The position numbers and the translations under genes were made by a program. Below, in pieces: positions 2,283 to 14,951 of a DNA stretch of 43,442 nucleotides (positions within the stretch are counted from its first letter, which is position 1; each line of letters opens with the position of its first letter). A model generated the notes under the pieces. That model did no database searches, was not told the origin of the DNA, and saw nothing but the letters and a program-made list of their open reading frames with translations. This DNA comes from an uncultured Gammaproteobacteria bacterium (GTDB taxonomy: Bacteria; Patescibacteriota; Patescibacteriia; JAQUQO01), in contig CAYZWC010000001.1 of NCBI GenBank assembly GCA_964482065.1, positions 1-43,442 on the forward strand. The letters run 5' to 3'.

Positions 2283-2326
2283 ATTTACATAACATAAAGT
2301 CAACATTCTTTCCAAAGGAGGAAGAG

Positions 2327-2983
2327 ATGAGCGAAAAACCGAAACTGATTGTTTTTGCGTCGGGTGACAAGAACGGCGGCGGATCCGGTTTTCAGGAGCT
2401 CGTGGAAAATTCGCGGTCTGGCGTTTTGGATGCCGAGATCGTGGCCGTGGTTTCCAATTGGCCGGAGGGCGGAGTGTTCAAAAGAGCCGAAAAGCTCGGG
2501 ATTCCTTTTGTGCATTTCAAAAAACCCCGCACGGCCGAAAGGTATCGTGAACTTGTGGAATGGTGGAGTGCCGACTTCGTGGCTCTTTCCGGCTGGTTGA
2601 AATTGGCTCGCGGTCTGGATCCGGCCTGCACTATAAATATTCATCCCGGACCCTTGCCCGATTTTGGCGGCAAGGGAATGTATGGACATCGTGTCCATGA
2701 ATCGGTGATGGCAACTCATAAAGTTGACGGCTTGCCGGCTACGGCCGTAACTATGCATTTCGTGACCGAAGAATACGACCGGGGACCTATTTTCTTTGAA
2801 TACCCGGTTTGGATTCGTCCTGATGACACACCAGATTCCATCGGTAGCAGAGTGAACAAAATCGAGCATGGCTGGCAGTCTTATGTTACCAATTTGGTGG
2901 TTCATGGAAAAATTCACTGGGACGGGGAAAATCCCGAAAGTTTAGTGGTACCCGACGGATGGCCGTTTCTGCCCAAGCGGTAA
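2327..2983 (+). CDS. purN: phosphoribosylglycinamide formyltransferase-like (PurN-type formyltransferase)
   Basis: 218-aa ORF with a formyl_trans_N-like core (TINIHPGPLPDFGG, MHFVTEEYDRGPI). The N-terminal KLIVFASG strand is typical of PurN. Confidence 0.7.
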   Translation: MSEKPKLIVFASGDKNGGGSGFQELVENSRSGVLDAEIVAVVSNWPEGGVFKRAEKLGIPFVHFKKPRTAERYRELVEWWSADFVALSGWLKLARGLDPACTINIHPGPLPDFGGKGMYGHRVHESVMATHKVDGLPATAVTMHFVTEEYDRGPIFFEYPVWIRPDDTPDSIGSRVNKIEHGWQSYVTNLVVHGKIHWDGENPESLVVPDGWPFLPKR

Positions 2984-3169: not shown

Positions 3170-6100
3170 ATGGAAAAATACAATTTCAAGAAAATTGAGG
3201 CAAAATGGCAGAAAGAGTGGGAAGAAAAAGATTTGTATAAAGCGGACGATAAATCCAAAAAAGAAAAGTATTATTGCCTTGTAGAGTTTCCCTATCCTTC
3301 CGGCGAAGGGCTTCATGTCGGGCATCCGAGAAGCTACACCGCCATGGACATTATTTCGCGCAAGCGGAGAATGGAAGGATACAATGTACTCTATCCGATC
3401 GGCTGGGACGCTTTTGGCCTCCCTGCTGAAAACTATGCCATTAAAACCGGAATTCATCCGAGTGTGGCTACAAAAAAGAATATAGAAACATTTAGGCGCC
3501 AGCTCAAGTCGCTGGGCTTTTCTTTTGATTGGTCGCGCGAGGTAAATACCACCGATCCCGAGTATTACAAATGGACACAGTGGATGTTCCTGAAGTTTTT
3601 TGAACATGGAATGGCTTACAAAGACAAGATTGCCATCAATTGGTGCCCTAAAGATAAAATCGGCTTAGCTAATGAAGAAGTGGTGAATGGGAAATGCGAG
3701 CGCTGCGGAGCCCCGGTGGAGAAAAGAATGAAAGAGCAATGGATGATCGCCATTACCAAGTATGCCGAGCGTTTGCTTCGTGATTTGGAAACAGTTGATT
3801 ACCTTCCGCAGATCAAAGAGCAGCAAAAAAATTGGATTGGTAAGAGTGTTGGCGCTAAAATTAAATTCGAGATTGTTCCTGAAGGCGGAGGTGAAGAGAA
3901 AAATATTAATTTGTCAAAAAATGTCCAACACTCTTCGCGGACTGACGCGGACTTGACGCGGACTGACGCGGAAATAGACAATAATAAGCTTTTGTATAAA
4001 GATTTGACATATAAAATTAGGGGAGCGATTTTTACAATAAAAAAACAACTGGGGTTAGGACATAAAGAAGATGTTTATCATGAAGCCCTGGAAATTGAAT
4101 TTGCAAAAATCGGTTTATCATTCGAATCTAAAAAAAATATAGATGTAAAATATGATAATAAAAAAGTAGGTGTTTACCAGCCGGATTTTATTATAGAAGA
4201 CAAAGTTTTGATTGAATTAAAAGCGCTTCCTGAAATAGGAAAACCGCAACTAAATCAAACATGGACGTATTTAAAGGGAAACGATTATAAATTGGCTCTT
4301 TTGGTAAATTTTGGAAGCAAAGAATTACAAATTAAAAGAATGGTTTATGAGACGGCGCGCAATGTTCCGCGAGAGTCCGCGTCTGTTCAGCAATATTCCG
4401 CGACCTCGGTAGAGGTATTTACTACTCGTCCGGGTACTTTATTCGGCGCGACATATATGGTGCTTGCTCCTGAACATGAATTATTAAAGAATCATGAATT
4501 AAGAATTACGAATTATGAAGAGGTTGAGAAATACATTAAGCAAGCTAGTAAAAAATCCGATTTAGAACGTTCCGAATTACAGAAGGAGAAAACGGGCATA
4601 GAACTTAAAGGCGTCAAAGCTATTAATCCCGCCACCAAAGAAGAGATTCCGATTTGGGTGGCTGACTATGTTCTCGCTTCCTATGGCACCGGAGCGATTA
4701 TGGCCGTGCCCGCTCATGATGAGAGGGATTTTGAATTTGCTAAGAAATATAATTTACCGATAAAACATGTAGTTGAGCCAGAGTATTCAATTTTAGATAT
4801 AAGCGAAGTTCTTTTTGTAGTTGCTACTAAATATGGAGAAGGTATTAAAACATTAAAATATCAGTATAGTATTATAAAAAAGGGCCAAGAAACCAGAACT
4901 TTTTGTTTTGTTGGAGAAGGGACTAATATTAATTCTGATTTTATTAATGGTTTAAAAACTTCAGAAGCAAAAGAGAAAATAATTAATTGGCTAGAAAAGG
5001 AAAAAATCGGCAAACGCGAAGTTAATTATAAACTGCGCGATTGGGTTTTTTCACGCCAGAGATATTGGGGGGAACCGATTCCTTTGGTTCATTGTGATAA
5101 ATGTGCGACAAAAAAGCCTAAGTTTCTTTTTCTCCACGGTTTTAAGGGAACATCAAGGGGAGATTTTTGGCTTTGGCTAAAAGAAGAGTTGGAGAAAAAA
5201 GGTTTTGAAGTCCGGGTTCCCGATTTGCCAAATACAAATGAACCAAATTTGGAAGAGCAAATGAAGTTTGTGTTGGATAATTTTAAAATTGATGAAAACA
5301 CCATAGTTATCACTCATAGCTTAGGTGGAGTTCTGGCAATGGAGTTGTTTGGGCAGGGCAAAGCAAAAGCGCAAAAATTAATTATGGTTGCTCCTCCGCT
5401 AAAAACCGAATTTAAAGATGGCAAGGATCGCCCGGCCTTGAATCGTTATTGCGATTGGAAGTTTAATTTTTCAAAAATTAAAAAACAGGTCGGCGAGATA
5501 AAAGTTATTTTGGACAAGGAAGATGATTGTGTTTCACCGTATCAACCGAGAGAGATTGCAGAAAAGCTGGGAGCTGAACTTATAGAAACAGTTGCTCACT
5601 CCCCGCATTTTAATTGTCCGCAAGCGCCGGCTGTTTTGGATAGTATTTTAACTAGCGATGTCCTAAATCCCGGCTGGGTATCTGTGCCGGAGAAGGATTT
5701 GCCGGTGAAATTGCCGGAGGTCAAAAAATACGAACCGACCGATACCGGAGAATCTCCGCTTGCCAATGTTTCCGATTGGGTCAATACCAAATGTCCTAAG
5801 TGCGGCGGACCGGCCAAACGGGAAACTGACACCATGCCAAACTGGGCGGGGTCTTCCTGGTATTTCCTGCGCTATACCGATCCCGAGAATAACAAAGAAT
5901 TTGCTGACGAGAAAAAATTAAAATACTGGATGCCGGTTGATTGGTATAACGGCGGAATGGAGCACACCACACTGCATCTTTTGTATTCCAGATTTTGGTA
6001 TAAATTTTTATATGACATCGGCGAGATTCCGGAAGAGTGTGGCAATGAGCCGTACAAAAAGAGAACCTCTCAAGGTCTGATTCTCGGGGAGGGCGGAGAA

Positions 6101-6898
6101 AAGATGAGTAAGTCCCGCGGCAATGTGGTAAATCCTGATGAAATGGTAAAAGAATACGGCGCGGATTCCCTTCGTCTTTATGAAATGTTTATGGGACCCT
6201 TTGACCAGCATATTCCTTGGGATACTAATGGACTTATCGGCTGCCAAAGATTTTTAAATAAAGTTTGGAATCTGCAAGAAAAGGTGTGTGAGACGAAAGA
6301 AGATTGGGTGCCTTTAGTTGCAGTAAAATTTGATTCAGATTTAGAGCAAAGGCAAAATATTGCGATAAAAAAAGAGATAAATAATATAGAAAAATTACTA
6401 CACCAAACCATCAAAAAGGTTAGTGAGGATATTGAAGAAATGAAGTTTAATACAGCAATAGCACAGATGATGACCTTTATCAATAGCGGTTTTCCCTCCT
6501 TAGAAGAGTTAATAAATAGATACCCAGAATTAAAAAATCAATTAGTAGAACAAACATTAAATCAAATATTAGTATCTCAGTTTAAAAATTTTTTAATTCT
6601 TTTAGCTCCCTTCGCGCCGCATATTGCGGAAGAAATTTGGAGCAACCTCGGAAACAAGAAAAGTATTCATTTGGAAAAATGGCCGGATTATGACGAAAGT
6701 TTAATTAAAGAAGAAAAAATTAATTTGGTAGTTCAGATTAACGGCAAGCTGCGCGATACTATTAAAGTTGCGGCGGATATTTCCGAAGAGGAAGCGAAGA
6801 AACTGGCTATGGAATCGGAAAAGATTAAAAAGCATTTAACCGGCAAGCCGAAGAAAGTTATTTTTGTGCCGGGCAAGCTAGTTAACATTGTTATTTAA
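3170..6898 (+). CDS. leuS: leucine--tRNA ligase carrying two large in-frame foreign domain insertions
   Basis: HIGH motif (HVGHPRSY), KMSKS motif (KMSKSRGN), first zinc knuckle (CPKD...CERCG), CP1/editing motifs (FTTRPGTLFGATY, AVPAHDERDFEFA), RDWVFSRQRYWGEPIP, and second zinc knuckle halves HCDKC and KCPKCGG. It encodes 1242 aa, against about 800-880 aa for ordinary bacterial LeuRS. Confidence 0.97.
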   Translation: MEKYNFKKIEAKWQKEWEEKDLYKADDKSKKEKYYCLVEFPYPSGEGLHVGHPRSYTAMDIISRKRRMEGYNVLYPIGWDAFGLPAENYAIKTGIHPSVATKKNIETFRRQLKSLGFSFDWSREVNTTDPEYYKWTQWMFLKFFEHGMAYKDKIAINWCPKDKIGLANEEVVNGKCERCGAPVEKRMKEQWMIAITKYAERLLRDLETVDYLPQIKEQQKNWIGKSVGAKIKFEIVPEGGGEEKNINLSKNVQHSSRTDADLTRTDAEIDNNKLLYKDLTYKIRGAIFTIKKQLGLGHKEDVYHEALEIEFAKIGLSFESKKNIDVKYDNKKVGVYQPDFIIEDKVLIELKALPEIGKPQLNQTWTYLKGNDYKLALLVNFGSKELQIKRMVYETARNVPRESASVQQYSATSVEVFTTRPGTLFGATYMVLAPEHELLKNHELRITNYEEVEKYIKQASKKSDLERSELQKEKTGIELKGVKAINPATKEEIPIWVADYVLASYGTGAIMAVPAHDERDFEFAKKYNLPIKHVVEPEYSILDISEVLFVVATKYGEGIKTLKYQYSIIKKGQETRTFCFVGEGTNINSDFINGLKTSEAKEKIINWLEKEKIGKREVNYKLRDWVFSRQRYWGEPIPLVHCDKCATKKPKFLFLHGFKGTSRGDFWLWLKEELEKKGFEVRVPDLPNTNEPNLEEQMKFVLDNFKIDENTIVITHSLGGVLAMELFGQGKAKAQKLIMVAPPLKTEFKDGKDRPALNRYCDWKFNFSKIKKQVGEIKVILDKEDDCVSPYQPREIAEKLGAELIETVAHSPHFNCPQAPAVLDSILTSDVLNPGWVSVPEKDLPVKLPEVKKYEPTDTGESPLANVSDWVNTKCPKCGGPAKRETDTMPNWAGSSWYFLRYTDPENNKEFADEKKLKYWMPVDWYNGGMEHTTLHLLYSRFWYKFLYDIGEIPEECGNEPYKKRTSQGLILGEGGEKMSKSRGNVVNPDEMVKEYGADSLRLYEMFMGPFDQHIPWDTNGLIGCQRFLNKVWNLQEKVCETKEDWVPLVAVKFDSDLEQRQNIAIKKEINNIEKLLHQTIKKVSEDIEEMKFNTAIAQMMTFINSGFPSLEELINRYPELKNQLVEQTLNQILVSQFKNFLILLAPFAPHIAEEIWSNLGNKKSIHLEKWPDYDESLIKEEKINLVVQINGKLRDTIKVAADISEEEAKKLAMESEKIKKHLTGKPKKVIFVPGKLVNIVI
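3934..3972 (+). repeat. left boundary repeat cluster: four tandem copies of a 10-11-nt unit (G/T)(A/T)CGCGGA(CT)
   Basis: Read directly from the sequence: ttcgcggact gacgcggactt gacgcggact gacgcgga. CGCGGA starts at 3936, 3946, 3957 and 3967. This is a GC-rich island in AT-rich coding DNA. Confidence 0.9.
4366..4402 (+). repeat. right boundary repeat cluster: three copies of TCCGCG, inverted relative to the left cluster
   Basis: TCCGCG occurs at 4366, 4376 and 4397. agtccgcgtc (4374-4383) is the perfect reverse complement of gacgcggact (3944-3953 and 3955-3964). Confidence 0.9.
5105..5671 (+). other. alpha/beta serine-hydrolase domain (YdeN/RBBP9-like) inserted in-frame in the second zinc knuckle of LeuRS
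   Basis: 189 codons lie between HCDKC and GWVSVPEKDLPVKLPE...KCPKCGG. They include KFLFLHGF (strand plus oxyanion region), the nucleophile elbow ITHSLGG (Ser codon 5318-5320), ILDKEDDCV (candidate acid) and AHSPHF (candidate His). Domain size matches the small single-domain serine hydrolases. Confidence 0.65.
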
Positions 6899-6934: not shown

Positions 6935-8227
6935 ATGAAAATTTCAGTTATCGGGACAGGGTATGTTGGTCTTGTTACAGGCACGTGTTTTGCTGACATG
7001 GGCAATGATGTTATTTGTGTTGACATTGATGAAGAAAAAATAGAAAAATTAAAAAATGGTGTTATTCCTATTTATGAACCGGGACTTAGGGAGCTCGTGG
7101 AAAAAAATTCCGAGGCCGGGCGTTTGCATTTTACGACTGATATAGAAAAAGTTGTAGGAAATTCAGAATTGATTTTCTTGTGTGTAGGTACTCCGCCAAA
7201 AGAAAGTGGTTCAGCTGATTTAAAATATGTATATGAAGCGGCGCGAGAAATTGCTCAGAATCTAAATGGATATAAATTAATTATCAGTAAAAGCACTGTT
7301 CCTGTTGGCACTAACGGAAAAATAAAAAAGATAATAGGAAATTATTTTTTGGGAGAATTTGGAGTAGCCTCGAATCCCGAATTTTTACGAGAAGGTAGCG
7401 CTGTAGAAGATTTTTTAAACCCGGAAAGAATCATTATAGGCATCAATAATGAGAGAGATAAAAAAATATTGGAAAAACTTTATCAAAATTTTAATTGTCC
7501 TAAAATTTTTACAAATATAGAAAGCGCGGAAATGATAAAGTATGCTTCCAATGCCTTTTTGGCCACCAAAATTTCTTTTATAAATGAGATAGCTAACATT
7601 TGCGAAGTTGTGGGAGCTGATGTTTGTGATGTTGCCAAGGGTATGGGTATGGACAAAAGAATAGGCCCGGATTTTTTAAAAGCCGGAATTGGTTATGGCG
7701 GGTCTTGTTTCCCCAAGGATATTAGAGCACTACACCAAATTTCAGGTGTAAATGGTTATCAGTTTCAGCTTTTAAAATCCGTTATTGAAGTTAATAATAC
7801 TCAACGCTGGTATTTTTTCAGAAAAATAAAAAATATTTTGGGAGAATTAGAAGGCAAGAAAATAGCTATTTGGGGGCTGGCTTTTAAGCCCGATACAGAT
7901 GATATTAGAGAGTCGGTATCATTGGAGATTATAGATAAATTGTTGGATGAAGGGGCGAGGGTTTCCGCTTATGATCCAATGGCTTCCCAAAAAACTAAAG
8001 TGCTATTTCCAGAAGTTGAATATTGCGAAAATCATTTTGACCCTTTAGACTCGGCCGACGCATTGCTTCTTATAACCGAATGGGAAGAGTTTAGAGAAGC
8101 AGATCTGTCTAAAGTTAAAAATTTAATGAAAAGCCCTTTAATTTTTGATGGAAGAAATATTTATTGTCCCAAGAAAATGAAAAAAATGGGTTTTGAGTAT
8201 TTCGGCATGGGGCGACCCAATTTATAA
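6935..8227 (+). CDS. ugd: UDP-glucose 6-dehydrogenase
   Basis: 430-aa ORF with the N-terminal Rossmann motif ISVIGTGYVGLVTG, the catalytic Cys motif GYGGSCFPKD, and the C-terminal UDP-binding GLAFKPDTDDIRES. Confidence 0.9.
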   Translation: MKISVIGTGYVGLVTGTCFADMGNDVICVDIDEEKIEKLKNGVIPIYEPGLRELVEKNSEAGRLHFTTDIEKVVGNSELIFLCVGTPPKESGSADLKYVYEAAREIAQNLNGYKLIISKSTVPVGTNGKIKKIIGNYFLGEFGVASNPEFLREGSAVEDFLNPERIIIGINNERDKKILEKLYQNFNCPKIFTNIESAEMIKYASNAFLATKISFINEIANICEVVGADVCDVAKGMGMDKRIGPDFLKAGIGYGGSCFPKDIRALHQISGVNGYQFQLLKSVIEVNNTQRWYFFRKIKNILGELEGKKIAIWGLAFKPDTDDIRESVSLEIIDKLLDEGARVSAYDPMASQKTKVLFPEVEYCENHFDPLDSADALLLITEWEEFREADLSKVKNLMKSPLIFDGRNIYCPKKMKKMGFEYFGMGRPNL

Positions 8228-8247
8228 TTTAGTATTAATTTTAAAAT

Positions 8248-8433
8248 ATGAAAATTAAAATTGATAAGGAAAAATGTCTTAAATGTGGAACTTGCGTTTC
8301 GTTGTATCCTGAATATTTTCGCTTTGATGATGAAGGTAATGTGGAAATAATTGATGCGGGGAATGTTCCCGAAGATATAATTAGGCAGGCTTTAAGTACT
8401 TGTCCCGTGGAAGCTATAAGCCATGAAGAATAA
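8248..8433 (+). CDS. small single-cluster ferredoxin
   Basis: 61-aa ORF with CLKCGTC (CxxCxxC) plus a distal CP (TCPVEAI), the classical Fe-S ferredoxin pattern. Confidence 0.8.
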   Translation: MKIKIDKEKCLKCGTCVSLYPEYFRFDDEGNVEIIDAGNVPEDIIRQALSTCPVEAISHEE

Positions 8434-8450
8434 TTATTTTATTTAATATT

Positions 8451-8969
8451 ATGGATTTAAAATTAAAAATAAGAGAAATTCCGAATTGGCCCATAAAAGG
8501 GGTAAATTTTAAAGATATTACTACTTTATTGCAGGACGGAGAGGCTTTTAAATTTATAATTGATGAGATGGCAAAGCCCTTTTGCGATAAAGATATAGAC
8601 AAAATAGTGGTTATTGATGCTAGAGGATTTTTGTTAGGCACCCCCATTGCTTATAATCTGGGAGTTGGTATAAGTTTGGTTAGAAAAAAAAGCAAACTTC
8701 CTTATAAAACTATTGAGGGAAGTTTTGAGAAAGAATACGGTCCTGATACTATTGCCATGCATGAAGATACTATTAAAAAAGGAGAAAAAGTTTTAATTGT
8801 CGATGATTTATTGGCCACCGGCGGAACTATGGCCGCTACTATAAGAATGATAGAAAAATTGGGCGGTGATATAGTTGGTATTAGTTTAATTGTGGACTTG
8901 CCTTTTTTGGGCGGGAGTAAAAAATTAGGGGGATATAATATAAATTATTTAATAAGCTATGACAGTTAA
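8451..8969 (+). CDS. apt: adenine phosphoribosyltransferase
   Basis: 172-aa ORF with the PRPP-binding motif VLIVDDLLATGGT. Length and N-terminal FKDIT region are typical of Apt. Confidence 0.9.
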   Translation: MDLKLKIREIPNWPIKGVNFKDITTLLQDGEAFKFIIDEMAKPFCDKDIDKIVVIDARGFLLGTPIAYNLGVGISLVRKKSKLPYKTIEGSFEKEYGPDTIAMHEDTIKKGEKVLIVDDLLATGGTMAATIRMIEKLGGDIVGISLIVDLPFLGGSKKLGGYNINYLISYDS

Positions 8970-9699
8970 TAAGATAGGAGTAATCGGTGGCAGCGGGTTG
9001 GATGATCCGAAAATTTTTTCCGATTATCGAACAAAAGAAGTTAAGACCCCTTATGGTAATCCGGCCAGTGAGTTAACTTTAGGGAAAATAGGTGATATTG
9101 AGGTAGTGGTTGTGGCCCGTCATGGAAAGAAGCACACCATAATACCCACGCATGTACCTTTCCGCTCTAATATTTGGGCGTTAAAAGAAGAAGGATGCAC
9201 GCATATTTTGGCCACTACAGCGTGCGGGTCTTTATGTAAAAAAATAAAGCCGGGTGATCTTATTTTCATTGATCAGTTTATAGACAATACTAAACACCGT
9301 ATTCTTACTTTTTTTGAAGATAAGGTGATTCATACTCCTATGGCTGAACCTTTTGACAAGAATTTACGTGACAAACTTGTGGCGGCAGCTGAAAGATTAG
9401 ATTTGGATTTTCACTCGGAAGGAACAATGATAACTATTGAAGGTCCGAGATTCTCCACTAAAGCTGAATCTCATATGTTTCGTTCTTGGGGAGCAGATGT
9501 GATTAATATGTCCACGATCCCAGAAGTAATTTTAACTAACGAACTTGGCATCCCCTATCAGTCAATCGCTATGTCTACTGATTATGACTGTTGGAAAGAG
9601 GATGAAGATCCTGTGACTTTTGAAATGATTATGGAGAGAATGAAAGAAAATGCGGAAAAAGTTAAAAAATTATTAATTCAAACAATTGAAAATTTTTAG
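8959..9699 (+). CDS. mtnP: S-methyl-5'-thioadenosine phosphorylase (PNP/MTAP family)
   Basis: 246-aa ORF with IGVIGGSG, ARHGKKHTIIPTHVPFRSNIWALK, ATTACGSL and VINMSTIPE. It overlaps apt by 11 nt. Confidence 0.88.
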   Translation: MTVNKIGVIGGSGLDDPKIFSDYRTKEVKTPYGNPASELTLGKIGDIEVVVVARHGKKHTIIPTHVPFRSNIWALKEEGCTHILATTACGSLCKKIKPGDLIFIDQFIDNTKHRILTFFEDKVIHTPMAEPFDKNLRDKLVAAAERLDLDFHSEGTMITIEGPRFSTKAESHMFRSWGADVINMSTIPEVILTNELGIPYQSIAMSTDYDCWKEDEDPVTFEMIMERMKENAEKVKKLLIQTIENF

Positions 9700-9713
9700 A
9701 TAAAAAAATATTT

Positions 9714-11024
9714 ATGACCCAAGAATTAAGTAATTTAATTACAAACAAAGAAGCGAGAATAGCCGTGGTCGGACTTGGTTATGTCGGTCTTCCTCTGTCA
9801 GTAGAATTTGCCAAAGCTGGTTTTAAAGTTGTGGGGGTTGATAATTTTCAGGACAAAATAAATATGTTGATGCGGGGGGAGTCTTATATCGCCGATGTCT
9901 TATCAGAAGATTTAAAAAATGTGGTTGAGGAGAAAAAATTGATCGGCTCTTATTCTTTTGAAAATATTAGTGAAGCTGACGTGATTGTGATTTGTGTGCC
10001 CACTCCTTTGGATAATCATAAAGATCCCGATGTTTCTTATATAAAAGATGCTTGCAAAACAATCAGCCCCAAATTAAAAAAAGGATGTTTGGTAATTTTG
10101 GAAAGCACGACCTTCCCGGGAACTACAGAAGAGGTGGTCCAGCCGCTGCTCGAAGAACACGGTCTTCGAGCCGGTAAAGATTTTTATTTGGCTTTTTCTC
10201 CGGAAAGAGTTGACCCCGGAAATAAGAATTATAATACCAAAAATACTCCAAAAGTAGTTGGCGGCATCAATAAAGAGAGTACCGATTTGGCCGCTTTGGT
10301 TTACAGTTCTTTTAATGAGAGCGTTCATAAAGTAAGTTCTCCTAGGGTGGCGGAAATGGAAAAGCTTTTAGAAAATATTTTTCGTATTGTTAATGTTTCT
10401 TTAGTTAATGAAATGGCTCTTTTGGCTAACCGTATGGATATTGATATTTGGGAAGTAATTGAAGCGGCTGCGACCAAGCCTTACGGTTTTATGCCTTTTT
10501 ATCCCGGACCTGGCGCCGGTGGTCATTGTATTCCTTTGGATCCTTTTTATCTTTCATGGAAGGCTAAGGAATATAATTTTAATGCCAAATTTATTGAACT
10601 GGCGGGTGAAATTAATGACATGATGCCCCACTATATTCTAGTTAAAGCATTAAATGTTTTAAATCGGAGACAAAAATCACTAAACGGATCGAAAATTTTA
10701 GTTTTAGGTGTGGCCTATAAAAAAGATATCTCTGATGACCGTGAATCTCCAATTTTAAAAATAATAGAATTATTAAGACATAAAGGGGCCGAGGTTATAT
10801 ATAATGATCCTTACGTTAAAAAGATAACAGTAGCTAATGGTAAGGTTGAAGATTTGTATTCTCAGGAATTAACTGGAGAACTTCTTCGTGATGTCGATTT
10901 GGTTTTAATTGGTACGGATCATAGCTTTTATGATTATGATAAGATTCCCAAGGAAGCCCAACTGGTTGTGGATACAAGAAATGCCATCAAGAGTCGTGAA
11001 TTTAAAAATGTTTATCGTTTGTAG
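9714..11024 (+). CDS. UDP-N-acetyl-D-hexosamine (ManNAc/GlcNAc) 6-dehydrogenase family
   Basis: 436-aa ORF with the Rossmann motif IAVVGLGYVGLPLS, the catalytic Cys GAGGHCIPLDP, and GVAYKKDISDDRESP. This pattern is typical of the WecC/Cap5O/WbpA branch. The sugar substrate is not assignable by eye. Confidence 0.82.
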   Translation: MTQELSNLITNKEARIAVVGLGYVGLPLSVEFAKAGFKVVGVDNFQDKINMLMRGESYIADVLSEDLKNVVEEKKLIGSYSFENISEADVIVICVPTPLDNHKDPDVSYIKDACKTISPKLKKGCLVILESTTFPGTTEEVVQPLLEEHGLRAGKDFYLAFSPERVDPGNKNYNTKNTPKVVGGINKESTDLAALVYSSFNESVHKVSSPRVAEMEKLLENIFRIVNVSLVNEMALLANRMDIDIWEVIEAAATKPYGFMPFYPGPGAGGHCIPLDPFYLSWKAKEYNFNAKFIELAGEINDMMPHYILVKALNVLNRRQKSLNGSKILVLGVAYKKDISDDRESPILKIIELLRHKGAEVIYNDPYVKKITVANGKVEDLYSQELTGELLRDVDLVLIGTDHSFYDYDKIPKEAQLVVDTRNAIKSREFKNVYRL

Positions 11025-11047
11025 TTTTTAATTACCTCATTTTTTAT

Positions 11048-12010
11048 ATGAAAGTTTTAGTTACCGGCGGAGCCGGATTTATAGGTTCGCATTTAATAAA
11101 AAGGTTAATCGAGGGCGGAGACCAAGTTGTTTGTGTTGATAATTTTAATGATTATTATGATATCGGATTGAAAAGGGACAGAATAAAAATTTTTTTGGGC
11201 AAATTTGATTTTCCTGTTTATGAGATAAATTTAGATAATTATAAAGCCCTGGAAAATATTTTTGAAAATAATAAAATTGACGCTGTTTGCAATTTGGCCG
11301 CTCAGCCAGGAGTCCGTTTTTATTTTGCTCGGACTGATGCTTATCAGACTTACAAAGAAAGCAATTTAGATGGTTTTGTAAATTTGTTGGAGCTATCAAA
11401 AAAATATCAAGTTAAAAATTTTGTTTACGCCAGCACCTCTTCCGTTTACGGAGATAGCCAAGAATTCCCACTGCGGGAAGATTTGCCTACCGACAAGCCC
11501 CTTTCCCTCTATGCTGCTACCAAAAAAAGCAATGAAGTTTTGGCTCATACATATAGCCATCTTTTTAATTTGCCAACAACCGGCCTCAGATTTTTTAATG
11601 TTTACGGACCTTGGGGCAGACCAGATGGAGTCTATTATATTTGGACGAAAAATATTCTAAAAAACAAGCCTATCCAAGTTTTTGGCCACGGAGAGCAGGA
11701 AAGGGACTGGACTTATGTTGATGATATTATTACTGGCGTGGCAAAAGTCATCCATAAACCGCAGCCTTACGCTATGTATAATATAGGAAGGGGGAAACCG
11801 GAAAAACTTATGGATTTTCTACGTTACACGGAAAAATATTTAGGCAAAAAAGCGCAAACGGAAATGATGCCTCTTCAGCCGGGTGAAGTACAAAAAACAT
11901 ATTGTTCCGAAGAAAATTTGAAAAAAGATTTTGGCTACCAGCCACAAGTAAATATTAAGCAGGGAATTAAAGAATTTATTGAATGGTATAGGGGATATTA
12001 TCATATATAG
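11048..12010 (+). CDS. NAD-dependent nucleotide-sugar epimerase, UDP-glucuronate 4-epimerase-like
   Basis: 320-aa extended SDR with TGGAGFIGSHL, VDNFNDYYDIGLKRDR (CapI/UDP-GlcA epimerase-like) and the catalytic YAATKKS. Confidence 0.78.
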   Translation: MKVLVTGGAGFIGSHLIKRLIEGGDQVVCVDNFNDYYDIGLKRDRIKIFLGKFDFPVYEINLDNYKALENIFENNKIDAVCNLAAQPGVRFYFARTDAYQTYKESNLDGFVNLLELSKKYQVKNFVYASTSSVYGDSQEFPLREDLPTDKPLSLYAATKKSNEVLAHTYSHLFNLPTTGLRFFNVYGPWGRPDGVYYIWTKNILKNKPIQVFGHGEQERDWTYVDDIITGVAKVIHKPQPYAMYNIGRGKPEKLMDFLRYTEKYLGKKAQTEMMPLQPGEVQKTYCSEENLKKDFGYQPQVNIKQGIKEFIEWYRGYYHI

Positions 12011-12036
12011 AATATTAATTTTCAGATTTATAAAAA

Positions 12037-13716
12037 ATGATTAATATAAAAAAAATATATAAAGATTCCATTAGCTCCTTGTATAAAAAGTGGTGGTTTG
12101 TGTTGTATTTTATTTTTATAATAATTATTGCTACGACTGATCTTTCTTGGACGGAAAGAAGTCTGTTTTTTGTTTATTCGTTAATAATTTTTTTGGTTAT
12201 TGAACGAGTTGTAAAAATAAAAAAATACAATAATGCATTGAGACAAGCCGGTCCTTATTCGGAAAATAAATTTTTTTTGTATCTTTTAATTTTTTCCGTA
12301 ATTTTTATTATTGCCACCCGATTAGTTCTTTTTATACGTTTTGGTGAAGCTCCGCTTGGTTACGATACAGGTTATTATTTATCAAGATTTTTAAAATTTG
12401 ATATATCTCTATCTTCACACCGACCTTTGTTTTTAAGCATAGTTCCTCTGCATCGTTTGGGATTGCCGCCTTCGGCGGCGCTTCATGTTATGTATGTACT
12501 TTACCAATTTTTGATTGTCGGAGGTCTTTATATTTTTTTTCGTTTTTCTAACTTATCGAATAATTTAAAATTCACCGCCGCTGGTATTTTCTTTTTTGCT
12601 ATTTCGGCTACGCAGTTTTATGCTTATTGGTGGATGTTCGCCCAGCAGATATTTGCCTTAGGCCTTATGTTTGCCACCTTAGCGCTCCTTTTTAAAAAAC
12701 CTGTTTTAGCAATTCTCACCGGAGGATTGGGTATCATTATTCATACCCCAACTTTTGCGGTGTTTGGCTTTGCGTTGACAATTTTTTTTATTGTTTGGTC
12801 GGCAGCGGATATGATTAAGACAAAAAAATTGAATAAAAATTTTTTTATTATCATGGGCGCGGCTTTAGGCATGTTTTTGATTTTAGTAACTCTCTATACC
12901 GACGCTTTTCTATCATATGTTAATTATATTGTCGAGCATCGTGGATTAACCACCACTTTTCCTGTCTGGGAAGTACCTGAAGCAAAGGGGCTATTCATTA
13001 GTGTGCCTTATTTTAAGCTTTTAAGCTTAATTATAATACCTTTTACTTTGATAGGTCTTTTACGACCTTCGTTATGGGGCAGACCTCTTAGAAAAAATAA
13101 TAATAGTTTTTCGTTTGAAATATTATTATTATTCCTATACATTATCTTTATAACCCTGCTTATTTTGATCTCCTTTCCTTTTATTTACCAAAATCGCTTT
13201 ATTATAATTTTTGATCTTTTTCTTATTATCTTTGCCACTCCCACGTTTGTTAGTTTTACCCGTTATTTTTTTAAAGAGAAATTTGGCTCGGTTATTTTGA
13301 TTATGTTTTTATTAACTCTTTTTGTGCGTTCCGGTATTATAGTTTGGGAACAAAAACCTTATATATATAATAATGAATTGCAGGATATCAAAAACGTTGC
13401 TTTGTGTACCGAGAAAAATGTTTATATTATGGCCACTCTAAATACCTATGCTCCCTGGGTAGCTGGATATTCTCGCCGCCCGTCGATTGGTCCCGGTCTC
13501 GGTTATGATCTGTGGGATTTGCCGCAATGGATAGAATTTTGGGAAAGTGAGGACAATAATAGAAGATTAGAATTATTAAATATGTATGATTATCCTCTTT
13601 ATATTTTCTTAAGTTCCCACCAAGATTCCTCATTACCATTTTATCAATTTATAATAAGTGATAGCCATTTTACCAAAATTAATAGTCATATTTGGAAATA
13701 TAACCCAGGAATATGA
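12037..13716 (+). CDS. polytopic membrane protein, possible GT-C-fold glycosyltransferase
   Basis: 559-aa ORF with about 12 or more hydrophobic helices over the first ~430 aa, followed by a ~120-aa soluble C-terminal domain. This architecture resembles the ArnT/PMT/oligosaccharyltransferase type. No diagnostic motif was confirmed. Confidence 0.4.
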   Translation: MINIKKIYKDSISSLYKKWWFVLYFIFIIIIATTDLSWTERSLFFVYSLIIFLVIERVVKIKKYNNALRQAGPYSENKFFLYLLIFSVIFIIATRLVLFIRFGEAPLGYDTGYYLSRFLKFDISLSSHRPLFLSIVPLHRLGLPPSAALHVMYVLYQFLIVGGLYIFFRFSNLSNNLKFTAAGIFFFAISATQFYAYWWMFAQQIFALGLMFATLALLFKKPVLAILTGGLGIIIHTPTFAVFGFALTIFFIVWSAADMIKTKKLNKNFFIIMGAALGMFLILVTLYTDAFLSYVNYIVEHRGLTTTFPVWEVPEAKGLFISVPYFKLLSLIIIPFTLIGLLRPSLWGRPLRKNNNSFSFEILLLFLYIIFITLLILISFPFIYQNRFIIIFDLFLIIFATPTFVSFTRYFFKEKFGSVILIMFLLTLFVRSGIIVWEQKPYIYNNELQDIKNVALCTEKNVYIMATLNTYAPWVAGYSRRPSIGPGLGYDLWDLPQWIEFWESEDNNRRLELLNMYDYPLYIFLSSHQDSSLPFYQFIISDSHFTKINSHIWKYNPGI

Positions 13717-14135
13717 AAAAATCCGCTATAAATTTTATTAAAAATTTTTTTATTATAATTATTATATTGTTTATTTTGTCTGGAGTTTTAATGATTTGGT
13801 TTTCTTTGCTGGATTCATTGCGTATTGTTTTTGGAGCATTTTCCGTGTTAGCATTACCTGGATTTTTTTTAAGTTACATCTTTTTTCCAAATGCTGCACC
13901 ATATACAGAACAGCCGGATGTTAAAAATTCAAAATCGTTGGATTATATTGAGAGGGGTATCCTCAGTTTATTTTTTTCCATTTCTATGGTAACATTAGCA
14001 TTGACTTTTTTGCGCCGTATTGAGATTATTCTTTCCCCTTTTATTATAACGATGGTTGTTTTGGTTATTAATGTTGTATGTTTAGTTGGCGCTTTACTTG
14101 TGCATTGGCGTTGGCGTTTAAACAAAAGTAAATAA
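13713..14135 (+). CDS. small 4-TM membrane protein of unknown function
   Basis: 140-aa ORF with four clear hydrophobic segments. Its start overlaps the preceding stop (ATGA), implying translational coupling. Confidence 0.5.
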   Translation: MKKSAINFIKNFFIIIIILFILSGVLMIWFSLLDSLRIVFGAFSVLALPGFFLSYIFFPNAAPYTEQPDVKNSKSLDYIERGILSLFFSISMVTLALTFLRRIEIILSPFIITMVVLVINVVCLVGALLVHWRWRLNKSK

Positions 14136-14143
14136 TTATTTAT

Positions 14144-14944
14144 ATGAATAATTTGTCAAAATTAGAAAATCAAAGCATTTATATAATACGCGAAGCCTAT
14201 AACCAATTTAAGAACGTGGCTCTACTTTGGTCCATTGGTAAGGATTCGACCACTCTTTTGTGGCTTTGCCGCAAAGCTTTTTATGGGAAGCTACCTTTCC
14301 CGGTTTTACATTTGGATACCGGTTATAAATTTAAAGAGATTTATAATTTTAGGGAGAAGTATGCCAAAGAGTGGGGGCTAGATTTAATAGTAGAAAAAAA
14401 TCAAGCCGTTTTGGATGCGGGCATGGGTCCGGAAAAGGGAAATTTGAAATGTTGCACCGCCCTGAAGACAAATAATTTAAAACAGGCAATTAGCAAGCAT
14501 CAATTTCAGGCTCTTTATTTAGCAATTCGTCGTGATGAGCACGGCATCAGAGCTAAAGAAAGAATTTTTAGTCCGCGCGACGATGAATTTTCTTGGAATT
14601 ATAAAAATCAGCCGCCGGAGCTTTGGGATCAATATAAAACCAAGGCTAAAGAAGAAGAGCACCTTCGCGTTCATCCCATGCTTGCCTGGAGAGAAATAGA
14701 TATTTGGGAATACACCAAAAGAGAAAATATTCCCGTTGCCGATTTGTATTTTGCCAAAAACGGCAAAAGATACAGAAGCATTGGCTGCGCACCCTGTTGT
14801 TCCCCTGTTGATTCCGAGGCCGATACTTTGGATAAAATTATTGAGGAATTAAAAACCACTAATGTCTCTGAAAGGAGCGGCCGGTCTCAAGATAAAGAAT
14901 CTGATTATATGATGCAGAAATTAAGAAGTTTGGGATACATGTAA
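14144..14944 (+). CDS. cysD: sulfate adenylyltransferase subunit 2
   Basis: 266-aa ORF that is collinear with CysD: LENQSIYIIRE, LWSIGKDSTTLL, PFPVLHLDTGYKFKE, RRDEHGIRAKERIFSPRD, NQPPELW, SERSGRSQDKE and LGYM at the C-terminus. Confidence 0.88.
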   Translation: MNNLSKLENQSIYIIREAYNQFKNVALLWSIGKDSTTLLWLCRKAFYGKLPFPVLHLDTGYKFKEIYNFREKYAKEWGLDLIVEKNQAVLDAGMGPEKGNLKCCTALKTNNLKQAISKHQFQALYLAIRRDEHGIRAKERIFSPRDDEFSWNYKNQPPELWDQYKTKAKEEEHLRVHPMLAWREIDIWEYTKRENIPVADLYFAKNGKRYRSIGCAPCCSPVDSEADTLDKIIEELKTTNVSERSGRSQDKESDYMMQKLRSLGYM

Positions 14945-14951
14945 ATATTTT

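What the first reader, a model, noticed from the sequence alone, without database searches (positions are those of the whole stretch)
5105..5671. Intact-looking alpha/beta serine hydrolase domain inserted between the two CxxC halves of the LeuRS second zinc knuckle
In canonical bacterial LeuRS, the sequence ...PLVHC-x2-CG continues almost directly into ...VPVPEKDLPV.LP... and then the second C-x2-C (here KCPKCGGPAKRETDTM). In this gene 189 codons are inserted immediately after HCDKC.

The insert reads as a compact single-domain serine hydrolase of the YdeN/RBBP9 kind. Its motifs are KFLFLHGF, PDLPNTNEP, the nucleophile elbow THSLGG (Ser717, codon 5318-5320), a candidate acid in ILDKEDDCV and a candidate His in AHSPHF. 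A full Ser-Asp-His triad therefore appears to be conserved, which argues for selection on catalysis rather than a decaying remnant.

I am not aware of a hydrolase domain nested inside an aminoacyl-tRNA synthetase as a described architecture. It could be an additional ester-hydrolysing proofreading or deacylase activity, or an unrelated moonlighting enzyme stabilised by the host protein.
Basis: partly seen in the sequence, partly recalled or inferred. Interest (0 to 1): 0.8.

Follow-up and report, generated by a model that had tools for sequence, protein, structure and literature searches.

The report
Serine hydrolase nested inside leucyl-tRNA synthetase
A complete, apparently active small esterase-type enzyme is built into a zinc-binding loop of the enzyme that charges tRNA with leucine. 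The same combination recurs across hundreds of ultra-small (CPR) bacteria, which suggests an undescribed accessory activity attached to the translation machinery.

Summary
Nucleotides 5105-5671 (aa 646-834 of a 1242-aa LeuRS) encode a complete YdeN/RBBP9-type serine hydrolase (PF06821). It lies in frame between the two CxxC halves of the second zinc knuckle.

- **Fold:** AlphaFold gives pLDDT 96. The best PDB folds are YdeN and RBBP9 (TM 0.80-0.83).
- **Active site:** Ser717 and His813 are invariant in 126 copies. Asp785 is acidic in 108 of 126.
- **Selection:** dN/dS is at most 0.18.
- **Not an artefact:** it is not a chimera, an intein or an intron.

It is not unique. Of the 120 nearest LeuRS relatives, 86 carry the domain, at four or more different sites. 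It also sits in IleRS, ValRS and a Der GTPase. In two genomes it is a separate gene directly upstream of an insert-free leuS.

The closest relative of this LeuRS lacks the insert, with a clean junction. The same sites host unrelated small enzymes in other lineages (NUDIX, GNAT, Ham1, nucleases). In this window a PD-(D/E)XK domain sits at the other main site.

Function is unproven. I favour a tethered hydrolase of alpha-aminoacyl linkages working with the synthetase (about 0.4). A passenger housekeeping enzyme is nearly as likely. I found no published description.

The parts
3170..6898 (+). leuS ORF: 1242-aa bacterial-type leucyl-tRNA synthetase that hosts the nested domains
   Evidence: ORF. 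TIGR00396 leuS_bact scores 994 bits against a cut-off of 548. The sequence contains HVGH (aa 49-52) and KMSKS (aa 978-982).
5093..5104 (+). First half of the ZN-2 knuckle, C642-D-K-C645, immediately upstream of the insert
   Evidence: Aligns to the T. thermophilus LeuRS motif HCEAC (C439/C442). Codons checked.
5105..5671 (+). Nested YdeN/RBBP9-type alpha/beta serine hydrolase domain, A646-P834 (189 aa)
   Evidence: PF06821 at 42.7 bits against a gathering score of 22. PDB phmmer hits YdeN at 4.6e-11. AF2 gives pLDDT 96.1 and pTM 0.92. Foldseek finds 1uxo at TM 0.80 and RBBP9 at TM 0.82-0.83. The indel is clean against P0008.
5135..5140 (+). His656-Gly657, the 'HG' motif after strand beta1 (putative oxyanion-hole element)
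   Evidence: H is present in 123/126 and G in 118/126 domain copies. The oxyanion-hole role is inferred from general alpha/beta-hydrolase knowledge.
5312..5329 (+). Nucleophile elbow T-H-S717-L-G-G (GxSxG type); Ser717 is codon 5318-5320
   Evidence: Ser is 126/126, the preceding His 114/126 and the following Gly 123/126. It aligns with the nucleophile elbow (HSLG) of YdeN and with Ser75 of RBBP9.
5522..5524 (+). Asp785, the candidate catalytic acid
   Evidence: D in 90 and E in 18 of 126 copies; the neighbouring D786 is not conserved. It aligns within one residue of RBBP9 Asp138.
5606..5608 (+). His813, the catalytic histidine (in the HF motif)
   Evidence: 126/126 copies. Aligns with the GGHF histidine of YdeN.
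5792..5803 (+). Second half of the ZN-2 knuckle, C875-P-K-C878 (followed by GGPAKRETDTM)
   Evidence: Aligns to T. thermophilus TCPKCGG (C484/C487). Both halves are retained in 56 of 69 site-A carriers.
3875..4405 (+). Separate insert at 'site B' (aa 236-412). It holds a PD-(D/E)XK / GxxExxY nuclease-like domain (aa 277-392, nt 3998-4345) flanked by low-complexity linkers. It ends just before the editing-site motif VFTTRPGT
   Evidence: PF13366 at 105.7 bits and TIGR04256 at 110 bits. Absent from P0009 and P0035 and present in P0008, P0010 and P0021. In other lineages the same site carries the hydrolase.
4400..4996 (+). CP1 editing domain (aa 411-609), with T-rich motif TTRPGT (aa 418-423, nt 4421-4438) and GTGAIMAVPAHDERD
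   Evidence: PF13603 at 193 bits. Motifs.

Best explanation
SHOWN. Nucleotides 5105-5671 encode a complete, autonomously folding Ser717-His813-Asp785 hydrolase of the YdeN/RBBP9 (PF06821) family. It is translated as an integral part of LeuRS, spliced in frame into the ZN-2 zinc knuckle.

It is one instance of a widespread architecture in CPR/Patescibacteria. The same hydrolase family has been captured repeatedly by the three CP1-editing class Ia synthetases: LeuRS at four or more sites, IleRS and ValRS. It also occurs as a separate gene immediately upstream of an insert-free leuS.

INFERRED. The domain keeps its own active site and works as a tethered accessory hydrolase of soluble alpha-aminoacyl linkages, that is, an amino acid with a free alpha-amine joined by an ester or amide bond. 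The likeliest substrates are aminoacyl esters produced by the synthetase itself: mis-acylated tRNA 3' ends, or released aminoacyl-adenylate or aminoacyl-nucleoside species. LeuRS contributes proximity rather than catalytic residues. The CP1 editing site stays intact, so this would add to canonical editing rather than replace it.

Rough confidences: domain identity and catalytic competence about 0.9; functional coupling to the synthetase about 0.5; aminoacyl-ester deacylation specifically about 0.3.
For: **Identity, fold and selection**
- Pfam, PDB, AF2 and Foldseek all agree on the family.
- Ser and His are invariant and the acid is 86% acidic across 126 copies, whatever the host site.
- dN of the insert (0.27) equals that of the CP1 segment (aa 413-645), and dN/dS is at most 0.18 against the Falkowbacteria orthologue.

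**Integration into the host**
- In the full-length model of orthologue P0009, junction pLDDT is about 88-90 and pTM is 0.80. There is no disordered linker.

**Association with the synthetase**
- 86 of the 120 nearest LeuRS relatives carry the domain.
- In a scan of GTDB species genomes with a hydrolase-only query, all 80 best loci are nested in LeuRS (63) or IleRS (17).
- Insertion sites in LeuRS include reference positions ~440, ~235-241, ~362-378, ~206 and ~600.
- Inserts at the ZN-2 site derive from two deeply separated hydrolase subfamilies, so capture there happened more than once.
- In IleRS the domain ends about 10 residues before the editing motif WTTTPWT. In the commonest LeuRS arrangement it ends 2-4 residues before TTRPDT, which is the homologous position.
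- Standalone genes P0281 and P0282 lie 48 and 36 bp upstream of insert-free leuS genes, on the same strand, in otherwise different neighbourhoods. The closest relatives of P0281 (74% aa identity) are nested in LeuRS.

**Chemistry of the family**
- RBBP9 removes N-terminal amino acids and requires a free alpha-amine (PMC8866121).
- RBBP9 activates valacyclovir, the L-valyl ester of a nucleoside analogue (Shenoy 2020, cited in PMC7730578).
- ML-005 hydrolyses short-chain esters. YdeN has no lid, which was read as pointing to soluble esters or thioesters (PMC6119806).
Against: - The same landing sites carry unrelated small enzymes in other lineages: NUDIX, Ham1, GNAT, LMW phosphatase, a nucleotidyltransferase, PD-(D/E)XK and DUF559. 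Some sit in tandem with the hydrolase. The sites may therefore simply tolerate insertions.
- The same hydrolase is also nested in a Der/EngA GTPase.
- The closest relative of this LeuRS (82% nt identity) lacks the insert, so it is dispensable.
- CP1 editing motifs are intact in carriers and non-carriers alike, so no editing gap is evident.
- The domains are near neutral or acidic, with no basic RNA-binding signature.
- Five of the seven standalone genes examined are not next to leuS.
- Counts of carriers are inflated by vertical inheritance.
- No coordinates were available, so I could not measure the distance from Ser717 to the tRNA 3'-end path.
Confidence: 0.42

Rival explanations
1. Passenger housekeeping enzyme. 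The hydrolase is active, but its substrate has nothing to do with aminoacylation. Surface loops of CPR class Ia synthetases (the CP1 N-terminal linker, a CP1 variable loop, ZN-2) tolerate insertions. In these streamlined genomes, small single-domain enzymes become fixed there and ride on a constitutively expressed essential protein.
For: - LeuRS and IleRS of the same clade carry NUDIX, Ham1, GNAT, LMWPc, NTP_transf_5, PDDEXK_3 and DUF559 at the same sites, sometimes two or three in tandem.
- This window's own site B holds a nuclease-like domain instead of the hydrolase.
- The hydrolase is also nested in the inter-domain linker of a Der GTPase.
- Presence and absence vary among close relatives.
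- CP1 editing motifs are intact.
- Most standalone homologues are not next to leuS.
Against: - All 80 best hydrolase-only matches are in LeuRS or IleRS.
- Independent capture occurred at several LeuRS sites and from two subfamilies.
- The hydrolase-leuS gene pair is conserved in two different contexts.
- The domain sits at the homologous position next to the editing motif in both LeuRS and IleRS.
Confidence: 0.35
2. Amino-acid supply. The domain is an RBBP9-like aminopeptidase that releases hydrophobic N-terminal residues (Leu, Ile, Val) from scavenged peptides. This would feed the branched-chain synthetases of amino-acid-auxotrophic CPR cells.
For: - The hosts found are LeuRS, IleRS and ValRS, the three branched-chain amino-acid synthetases.
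- RBBP9 is a serine aminopeptidase that needs a free alpha-amine (PMC8866121).
Against: - The host bias is equally explained by the shared CP1 architecture.
- No peptide-binding features were identified.
- ML-005, from the bacterial branch of the family, is an esterase on short-chain esters.
- The residue aligned to the alpha-amine-anchoring Glu108 of RBBP9 is acidic in only 58 of 126 copies.
Confidence: 0.1
3. Catalytically dead structural or regulatory module, or a decaying remnant of an insertion.
For: No activity has been measured. The insert is absent from a close relative.
Against: - Ser, His and the HG motif are conserved in 118-126 of 126 copies.
- dN/dS is at most 0.18, the same dN as the CP1 segment.
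- The fold prediction has pLDDT 96.
Confidence: 0.03
4. Artefact or removable element: an assembly chimera, an intein that splices out, or an intron.
For: None found.
Against: - The identical protein and DNA occur in an independent Logan assembly.
- The orthologue with the same junction is present on 11 contigs from JGI, ENA and NCBI.
- About 35 clusters (at 50% identity) match flank-insert-flank colinearly.
- The insert begins with Ala, ends Leu-Asn-Pro and is followed by Gly. There is no intein His-Asn plus Cys/Ser/Thr junction, and the fold is not HINT.
- No Rfam family matches anywhere in the window.
- There are no terminal repeats or target-site duplication.
Confidence: 0.02

Closest known systems
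YdeN of Bacillus subtilis (PDB 1UXO) and the PF06821/COG3545 'Ser_hydrolase' family, including the esterase ML-005
   Same: Same family by profile, sequence and fold (TM 0.80). It shares the ~190-aa lidless alpha/beta hydrolase fold, the nucleophile elbow and the Ser-Asp-His triad. ML-005 hydrolyses short-chain esters.
   Different: YdeN and ML-005 are free-standing proteins. Here the domain is nested inside another enzyme. No physiological substrate is known for the bacterial family.
Human RBBP9 (PDB 2QS9, 7OEX, 9FCR)
   Same: Same fold (TM 0.82-0.83) and an aligned Ser75/Asp138. It is the family member with a defined substrate class: alpha-aminoacyl linkages with a free amine, and the valyl ester valacyclovir (reference cited).
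   Different: About 20% identity. It is a eukaryotic, free-standing protein. The residue aligned to its amine-anchoring Glu108 is only partly conserved here (acidic in 58/126).
CP1 editing domain of class Ia synthetases (PF13603 in LeuRS)
   Same: It is a hydrolytic domain nested inside the Rossmann fold of LeuRS, IleRS and ValRS, and it acts on aminoacyl esters. The new domain is most often inserted directly beside its T-rich active-site motif.
   Different: The fold and catalytic mechanism are unrelated: CP1 has no Ser-His-Asp triad. CP1 is universal and ancient, whereas the hydrolase is lineage-specific, polymorphic and found at several sites.
NCBIfam NF040702 'isoleucine--tRNA ligase, N-acetyltransferase domain-containing'
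   Same: It is a curated precedent for an accessory enzyme domain nested in a class Ia synthetase. Saccharibacteria IleRS with hydrolase plus GNAT partially matches it.
   Different: The guest domain is GNAT rather than a hydrolase, and the host is IleRS rather than LeuRS. No NCBIfam model exists for the LeuRS-hydrolase architecture.
Free-standing trans-editing deacylases (AlaXp, YbaK/ProXp, DTD), recalled from my own knowledge
   Same: These are small hydrolases that clear aminoacyl-tRNA, and some are homologous to synthetase-embedded editing domains. The standalone hydrolase gene upstream of leuS, alongside nested versions, mirrors that free/embedded duality.
   Different: There is no sequence or fold relationship. 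Deacylase activity of the PF06821 domain is untested.

Membership tests
PF06821 Ser_hydrolase (YdeN/RBBP9 family) | Profile match above Pfam's gathering score | tested here: met
   42.7 bits for the insert alone and 37.6 bits within the whole protein, against a gathering score of 22.
PF06821 Ser_hydrolase (YdeN/RBBP9 family) | Compact (~190 aa) lidless alpha/beta-hydrolase fold | tested here: met
   AF2 gives pLDDT 96.1 and pTM 0.92. The top Foldseek PDB hits are 1uxo (TM 0.80) and 2qs9/7oex/9fcr (TM 0.80-0.83); larger lidded hydrolases score TM 0.75 or lower.
PF06821 Ser_hydrolase (YdeN/RBBP9 family) | GxSxG-type nucleophile elbow and Ser-Asp-His triad at the canonical positions | tested here: met
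   THS717LGG, D785 and H813 align with the YdeN and RBBP9 residues. Conservation is 126/126, 108/126 (D or E) and 126/126. The 3D geometry of the triad could not be measured because no coordinates are returned.
PF06821 Ser_hydrolase (YdeN/RBBP9 family) | Hydrolytic activity | not testable with these tools
   This needs an enzyme assay or activity-based probe labelling, with and without S717A.
Bacterial-type leucyl-tRNA synthetase (TIGR00396) | Equivalog HMM above the curated cut-off | tested here: met
   994.3 bits against a cut-off of 548.4, in three stretches interrupted by the inserts.
Bacterial-type leucyl-tRNA synthetase (TIGR00396) | Class I signature motifs HIGH and KMSKS | tested here: met
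   HVGH at aa 49-52 and KMSKS at aa 978-982 are present in the translation.
Bacterial-type leucyl-tRNA synthetase (TIGR00396) | CP1 editing domain with the T-rich and GTG...HDxRD motifs | tested here: met
   PF13603 scores 193 bits and GTGAIMAVPAHDERD is intact. The T-rich motif reads TTRPGT. The Asp-to-Gly change is unique among the 236 LeuRS compared.
Intein | N-terminal Cys/Ser/Thr (or Ala), C-terminal His-Asn, a downstream Cys/Ser/Thr, and a HINT fold | tested here: not met
   The insert ends ...VLNP and is followed by Gly. The fold is an alpha/beta hydrolase.
Known aminoacyl-tRNA editing/deacylase families (CP1, AlaX, YbaK/INS, DTD) | Homology to one of those folds | tested here: not met
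   Pfam and NCBIfam scans of the insert list only alpha/beta-hydrolase-type families above any curated cut-off, and the fold search returns only alpha/beta hydrolases. Any deacylase role would be analogous, not homologous.
Nested-enzyme class Ia synthetases (e.g. NF040702 ileS_w_GNAT) | Match to the curated model | tested here: not met
   The window LeuRS scores 89 bits against a cut-off of 1999. The resemblance is one of architecture only.

The most novel reading that the evidence does not exclude
The PF06821 domain is a third, modular proofreading site. It would be the first alpha/beta-hydrolase-fold aminoacyl-tRNA or aminoacyl-adenylate deacylase. It exists both as a trans factor encoded upstream of leuS and as a cis module captured repeatedly by LeuRS, IleRS and ValRS in CPR bacteria and some DPANN archaea. 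It would clear a class of mis-acylation products that CP1 does not handle.
Probability: 0.25. Interest if true: 0.9.

Novelty: new variant of a known kind. Interest (0 to 1): 0.68.

Why it matters
Aminoacyl-tRNA synthetases are among the best-studied enzymes, and their editing domains are textbook examples of quality control. An intact Ser-His-Asp hydrolase built into LeuRS, IleRS and ValRS across a large bacterial radiation would be a new accessory module of the translation apparatus, either as extra proofreading or as a new form of enzyme piggy-backing in minimal genomes.

The idea can be tested directly. Some carriers are Saccharibacteria (one locus is labelled Candidatus Nanosynbacter sp.), a group that from my own knowledge includes strains cultivable on host bacteria. 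The domain should label with fluorophosphonate probes, and an S-to-A mutant is an obvious control.

The pattern also gives natural data on which loops of a large enzyme accept whole-domain insertions: several sites, several guest enzymes, and clean presence/absence among close relatives.

Tried and rejected
**Searches that led nowhere**
- The word-indexed protein searches with the insert alone or with its profile returned only ~180-aa standalone proteins and missed all nested copies, including the window's own protein. They are useless as a host census. The nested copies came from the full-length search, the exhaustive search and the genome scan.
- Alignment A1 was too diverse for a locus scan, so I used the narrower A2.
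- The scan of metagenome contigs with P0281 gave only 3 loci.
- The Cusack 2000 LeuRS paper is not held. Papers mentioning 'Zn2' did not describe the T. thermophilus second knuckle. The position of ZN-2 relative to tRNA therefore rests on nothing tested here.

**Hypotheses tested and rejected**
- *The hydrolase compensates for a degenerate CP1 editing site.* Rejected as a general rule: TTRxDT and HDxRD are equally intact in 179 carriers and 57 non-carriers. Two isolated oddities remain: G422 in this window, and a degenerate T-rich motif in L089.
- *Mobile-element signatures at the boundaries.* I found no target-site duplication, no terminal repeats and only 1 nt of microhomology.
- *Intron.* No Rfam hit anywhere in the window.
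- *Intein.* The junction residues and the fold exclude it.
- *A basic RNA-binding surface.* Net charge is about -1 to -3, and about -10 in the IleRS copies.

**Other limits**
- Gene neighbourhoods of five standalone homologues were uninformative.
- Six literature searches for a prior description found none. The library lacks most subscription journals, so this is absence of evidence only.
Full report
**What is there**

The window carries one uninterrupted ORF, 3170..6898 (+), of 1242 aa. It is a bacterial-type leucyl-tRNA synthetase: TIGR00396 scores 994 bits against a cut-off of 548. It has HVGH, KMSKS, a CP1 editing domain (PF13603, 193 bits) and an anticodon-binding domain.

Against T. thermophilus LeuRS (1h3n) it aligns colinearly, with three interruptions:
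- aa 236-412;
- aa 538-582;
- aa 647-834.

It also lacks the Thermus leucine-specific domain.

The third interruption falls exactly between Thermus C442 and G443. That places it after the first CxxC (window C642/C645) and before the second CxxC (window C875/C878).

The 189 inserted residues (nt 5105-5671) match PF06821 Ser_hydrolase at 42.7 bits (gathering score 22), plus general alpha/beta-hydrolase models. They match the sequences of YdeN (1uxo, E 4.6e-11) and RBBP9 (E 4e-6).

**Is it a real, folded, selected domain?**

An AlphaFold2 model of the insert, built with a 37-sequence alignment, has mean pLDDT 96.1 and pTM 0.92, with a beta-alpha-beta pattern. Foldseek against the PDB ranks YdeN first (TM 0.80) and then RBBP9 (TM 0.80-0.83). 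Larger, lidded hydrolases come well behind.

In an alignment of 126 copies of the domain from different proteins:

| Residue | Conservation |
|---|---|
| Ser717 | 126/126 |
| His813 | 126/126 |
| Gly of the elbow | 123/126 |
| His656 (HG motif) | 123/126 |
| Gly657 (HG motif) | 118/126 |
| Asp785 | D in 90, E in 18 |

The catalytic His is therefore the second His of AHSPHF, and the acid is the first Asp of EDD.

Against the Falkowbacteria orthologue the insert has dN 0.27, the same as the CP1 segment, with dS saturated. dN/dS is at most 0.18.

**Is it an artefact or a removable element?**

No.
- The identical protein and DNA are present in an independent Logan assembly of SRR7048228.
- Orthologue P0009 (Candidatus Falkowbacteria, GCA_001780335.1) has the same junction. 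It was found on 11 contigs from JGI, ENA and NCBI and shares upstream synteny with the window.
- An exhaustive search of 1.84 billion representatives, with a query spanning flank-insert-flank, found about 35 clusters that match colinearly.
- The closest relative, P0008 (82% nt identity), reads HCQKC|GWVQV where the window reads HCDKC|[189 aa]|GWVSV. At DNA level the two junctions share only a single G, with no duplication or terminal repeats.
- The insert has no intein junction residues and a non-HINT fold.
- No Rfam family, and hence no known intron class, matches anywhere in the window.
- In a full-length model of P0009 the junction blocks have pLDDT about 88-90 and the whole model has pTM 0.80. 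The domain is therefore predicted to be rigidly integrated rather than hung on a floppy linker.

**How common is it, and where else does it sit?**

Of the 120 LeuRS sequences closest to this one, all from Patescibacteria, 86 contain the domain. JGI's pipeline has already labelled some of them 'leucyl-tRNA synthetase/predicted alpha/beta hydrolase family esterase'.

Mapping the domain onto an insert-free reference LeuRS shows several insertion sites:
- the ZN-2 site used here (reference position ~440);
- a more frequent site at ~235-241, which ends two to four residues before the editing-site motif VFTTRPDT;
- a site inside or after CP1 (~362-378);
- rarer sites at ~206 and in the leucine-specific-domain region.

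A neighbour-joining tree is rough and has no support values. It separates two deep hydrolase subfamilies, both of which supply inserts at the ZN-2 site. The window's copy, with P0009, groups among site-B copies rather than with most other ZN-2 copies. Capture at this site therefore happened more than once.

A scan of one genome per GTDB species used a hydrolase-only query and found 223 relatives. The 80 best all lie inside large ORFs: 63 LeuRS and 17 Saccharibacteria IleRS.

In the IleRS hosts the domain ends about 10 residues before the editing motif WTTTPWT. This is the position homologous to the common LeuRS site. Further hosts are a ValRS and a Der/EngA GTPase.

**Standalone copies**

About 30 clusters of 176-210-aa standalone homologues exist in Patescibacteria. 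I examined seven of them in genomic context.

Two of these, P0281 and P0282, rank first and third among the hits to the family profile. They lie 48 and 36 bp upstream of an insert-free leuS (817 and 801 aa), on the same strand. Their wider neighbourhoods are otherwise unrelated. The other five are elsewhere.

The closest relatives of P0281 (74% aa identity) are nested at the common LeuRS site. The N-terminal part of those LeuRS proteins is 81% identical to the LeuRS encoded next to P0281. The free-gene-beside-leuS state and the nested state have therefore interconverted recently.

**What argues against a synthetase-specific role?**

- The same sites are general landing pads. Other CPR LeuRS proteins carry Ham1, DUF559 or PDDEXK_3 at the site before TTRPDT, and NUDIX or a nucleotidyltransferase at the CP1 loop.
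- Saccharibacteria IleRS carries LMW-phosphatase + NUDIX + hydrolase, or hydrolase + GNAT, in tandem.
- NCBI already curates an 'IleRS with GNAT' model, NF040702.
- In this window the site before TTRPGT holds a PD-(D/E)XK/GxxExxY domain (110 bits). Its motifs are intact, and it is more conserved between relatives than the host's catalytic core: 94% against 79-81% with P0008.
- The two inserts vary independently. P0008 has the nuclease-like domain but not the hydrolase, and P0009 has the reverse.
- CP1 editing motifs are intact in carriers and non-carriers alike.
- The hydrolase domains are not basic.

**How it most likely works**

*Shown:* the domain is a complete Ser-His-Asp hydrolase of a lidless, soluble-ester-type family. 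It is translated within LeuRS, is under purifying selection, and is repeatedly and preferentially associated with the three CP1-containing synthetases.

*Established for relatives:*
- RBBP9 forms an aminoacyl-enzyme intermediate and needs a free alpha-amine on its substrate (PMC8866121).
- RBBP9 activates the valyl ester valacyclovir (reference cited).
- ML-005 cleaves short-chain esters, and YdeN's missing lid was read as pointing to soluble esters or thioesters (PMC6119806).

*Inferred:* tethered to the synthetase, the domain hydrolyses alpha-aminoacyl esters generated there, namely mis-acylated 3' ends or released aminoacyl-adenylate. This would add to CP1 editing rather than replace it. 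I give this about 0.3, and functional coupling of any kind about 0.5.

The main rival, at about 0.35, is that the hydrolase is an unrelated housekeeping enzyme fixed in a permissive loop. A branched-chain-amino-acid-releasing aminopeptidase is a minor third option.

The tools here cannot discriminate further. No model coordinates are available to measure the distance from Ser717 to the tRNA 3' end, and no complete host census was possible.

**Novelty**

Both parts are known families, and domain accretion in synthetases is a known theme. A YdeN/RBBP9 hydrolase nested in LeuRS, IleRS or ValRS, with a free-standing form beside leuS, was not found in any paper I could search. No NCBIfam model covers it. 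I therefore class it as a new variant of a known kind.

This window is one well-preserved example of it, not a one-off.

Noticed in passing
window 3875-4405 (aa 236-412; domain at 3998-4345): A second nested domain in the same LeuRS. It is a PD-(D/E)XK / GxxExxY nuclease-like domain (PF13366 105.7 bits, TIGR04256 110 bits) with intact GHKEDVY and PD...ELK motifs, flanked by low-complexity linkers, and inserted just before the editing motif. It is more conserved between relatives (94% with P0008) than the host's catalytic core (79-81%).
   Followed up: partly
window 4433-4435 (Gly422, codon GGT): The T-rich editing motif reads TTRPGT instead of TTRPDT. This Asp-to-Gly change, a single GAT-to-GGT transition, is unique among the 236 LeuRS sequences compared and is absent from the closest relatives. 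It could be a real variant that affects CP1 editing, or a sequencing error.
   Followed up: partly
window 4781-4915 (aa 538-582): A hypervariable ~45-aa loop in the C-terminal part of CP1, with low confidence in the P0009 model. It corresponds to the site where other CPR LeuRS proteins carry NUDIX, a nucleotidyltransferase or the hydrolase.
   Followed up: partly
window ~6089-6115 (aa 974-982, GEGGEKMSKS): This LeuRS and its CPR relatives lack the leucine-specific domain found in T. thermophilus LeuRS (Tt ~577-634 by alignment).
   Followed up: no
L024:2881-8118 and L025:3787-8262 (Saccharibacteria IleRS): IleRS proteins of 1260-1750 aa carry tandem nested enzymes before the WTTTPWT editing motif: LMW phosphatase + NUDIX + Ser_hydrolase in one, and Ser_hydrolase + GNAT in the other. 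One locus is labelled Candidatus Nanosynbacter sp.
   Followed up: partly
L011, L022, L027, L031, L033, L042, L048, L075, L080: Contigs binned as DPANN archaea (Woesearchaeota, Pacearchaeota) encode a bacterial-type LeuRS with the hydrolase at the common site. In L022 the neighbouring gene is a TyrRS whose best NCBIfam match is PRK08560, which I believe is the archaeal type. This suggests transfer from CPR to DPANN rather than mis-binning.
   Followed up: partly
L089:6607-9060: The insert-free leuS encoded directly downstream of standalone hydrolase P0281 has a degenerate T-rich editing motif (YDSIPQT instead of FTTRPDT) and an altered GTG motif (GTGIVNCSAHDERD). The other such pair, in L094, has intact motifs.
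   Followed up: partly
P0188 (635 aa): A Der/EngA GTPase carries the same hydrolase family nested in the linker between its two GTPase domains. In the rough tree it is the closest neighbour of the window/P0009 pair.
   Followed up: partly
window 6935-16193: Downstream of leuS are two UDP-glucose/GDP-mannose dehydrogenase genes, a nucleoside phosphorylase, an epimerase/dehydratase and a CysD/CysN-like pair (PAPS_reduct + EF-Tu-type GTPase). Then comes a long same-strand run of ORFs that I did not scan. This may be an envelope-polysaccharide/sulfation cluster, which is unusual metabolic content for a CPR genome.
   Followed up: no
window 2300-2900: The formyltransferase gene (2327-2983) has GC 0.50-0.53, against 0.30-0.45 in the surrounding genes.
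   Followed up: no
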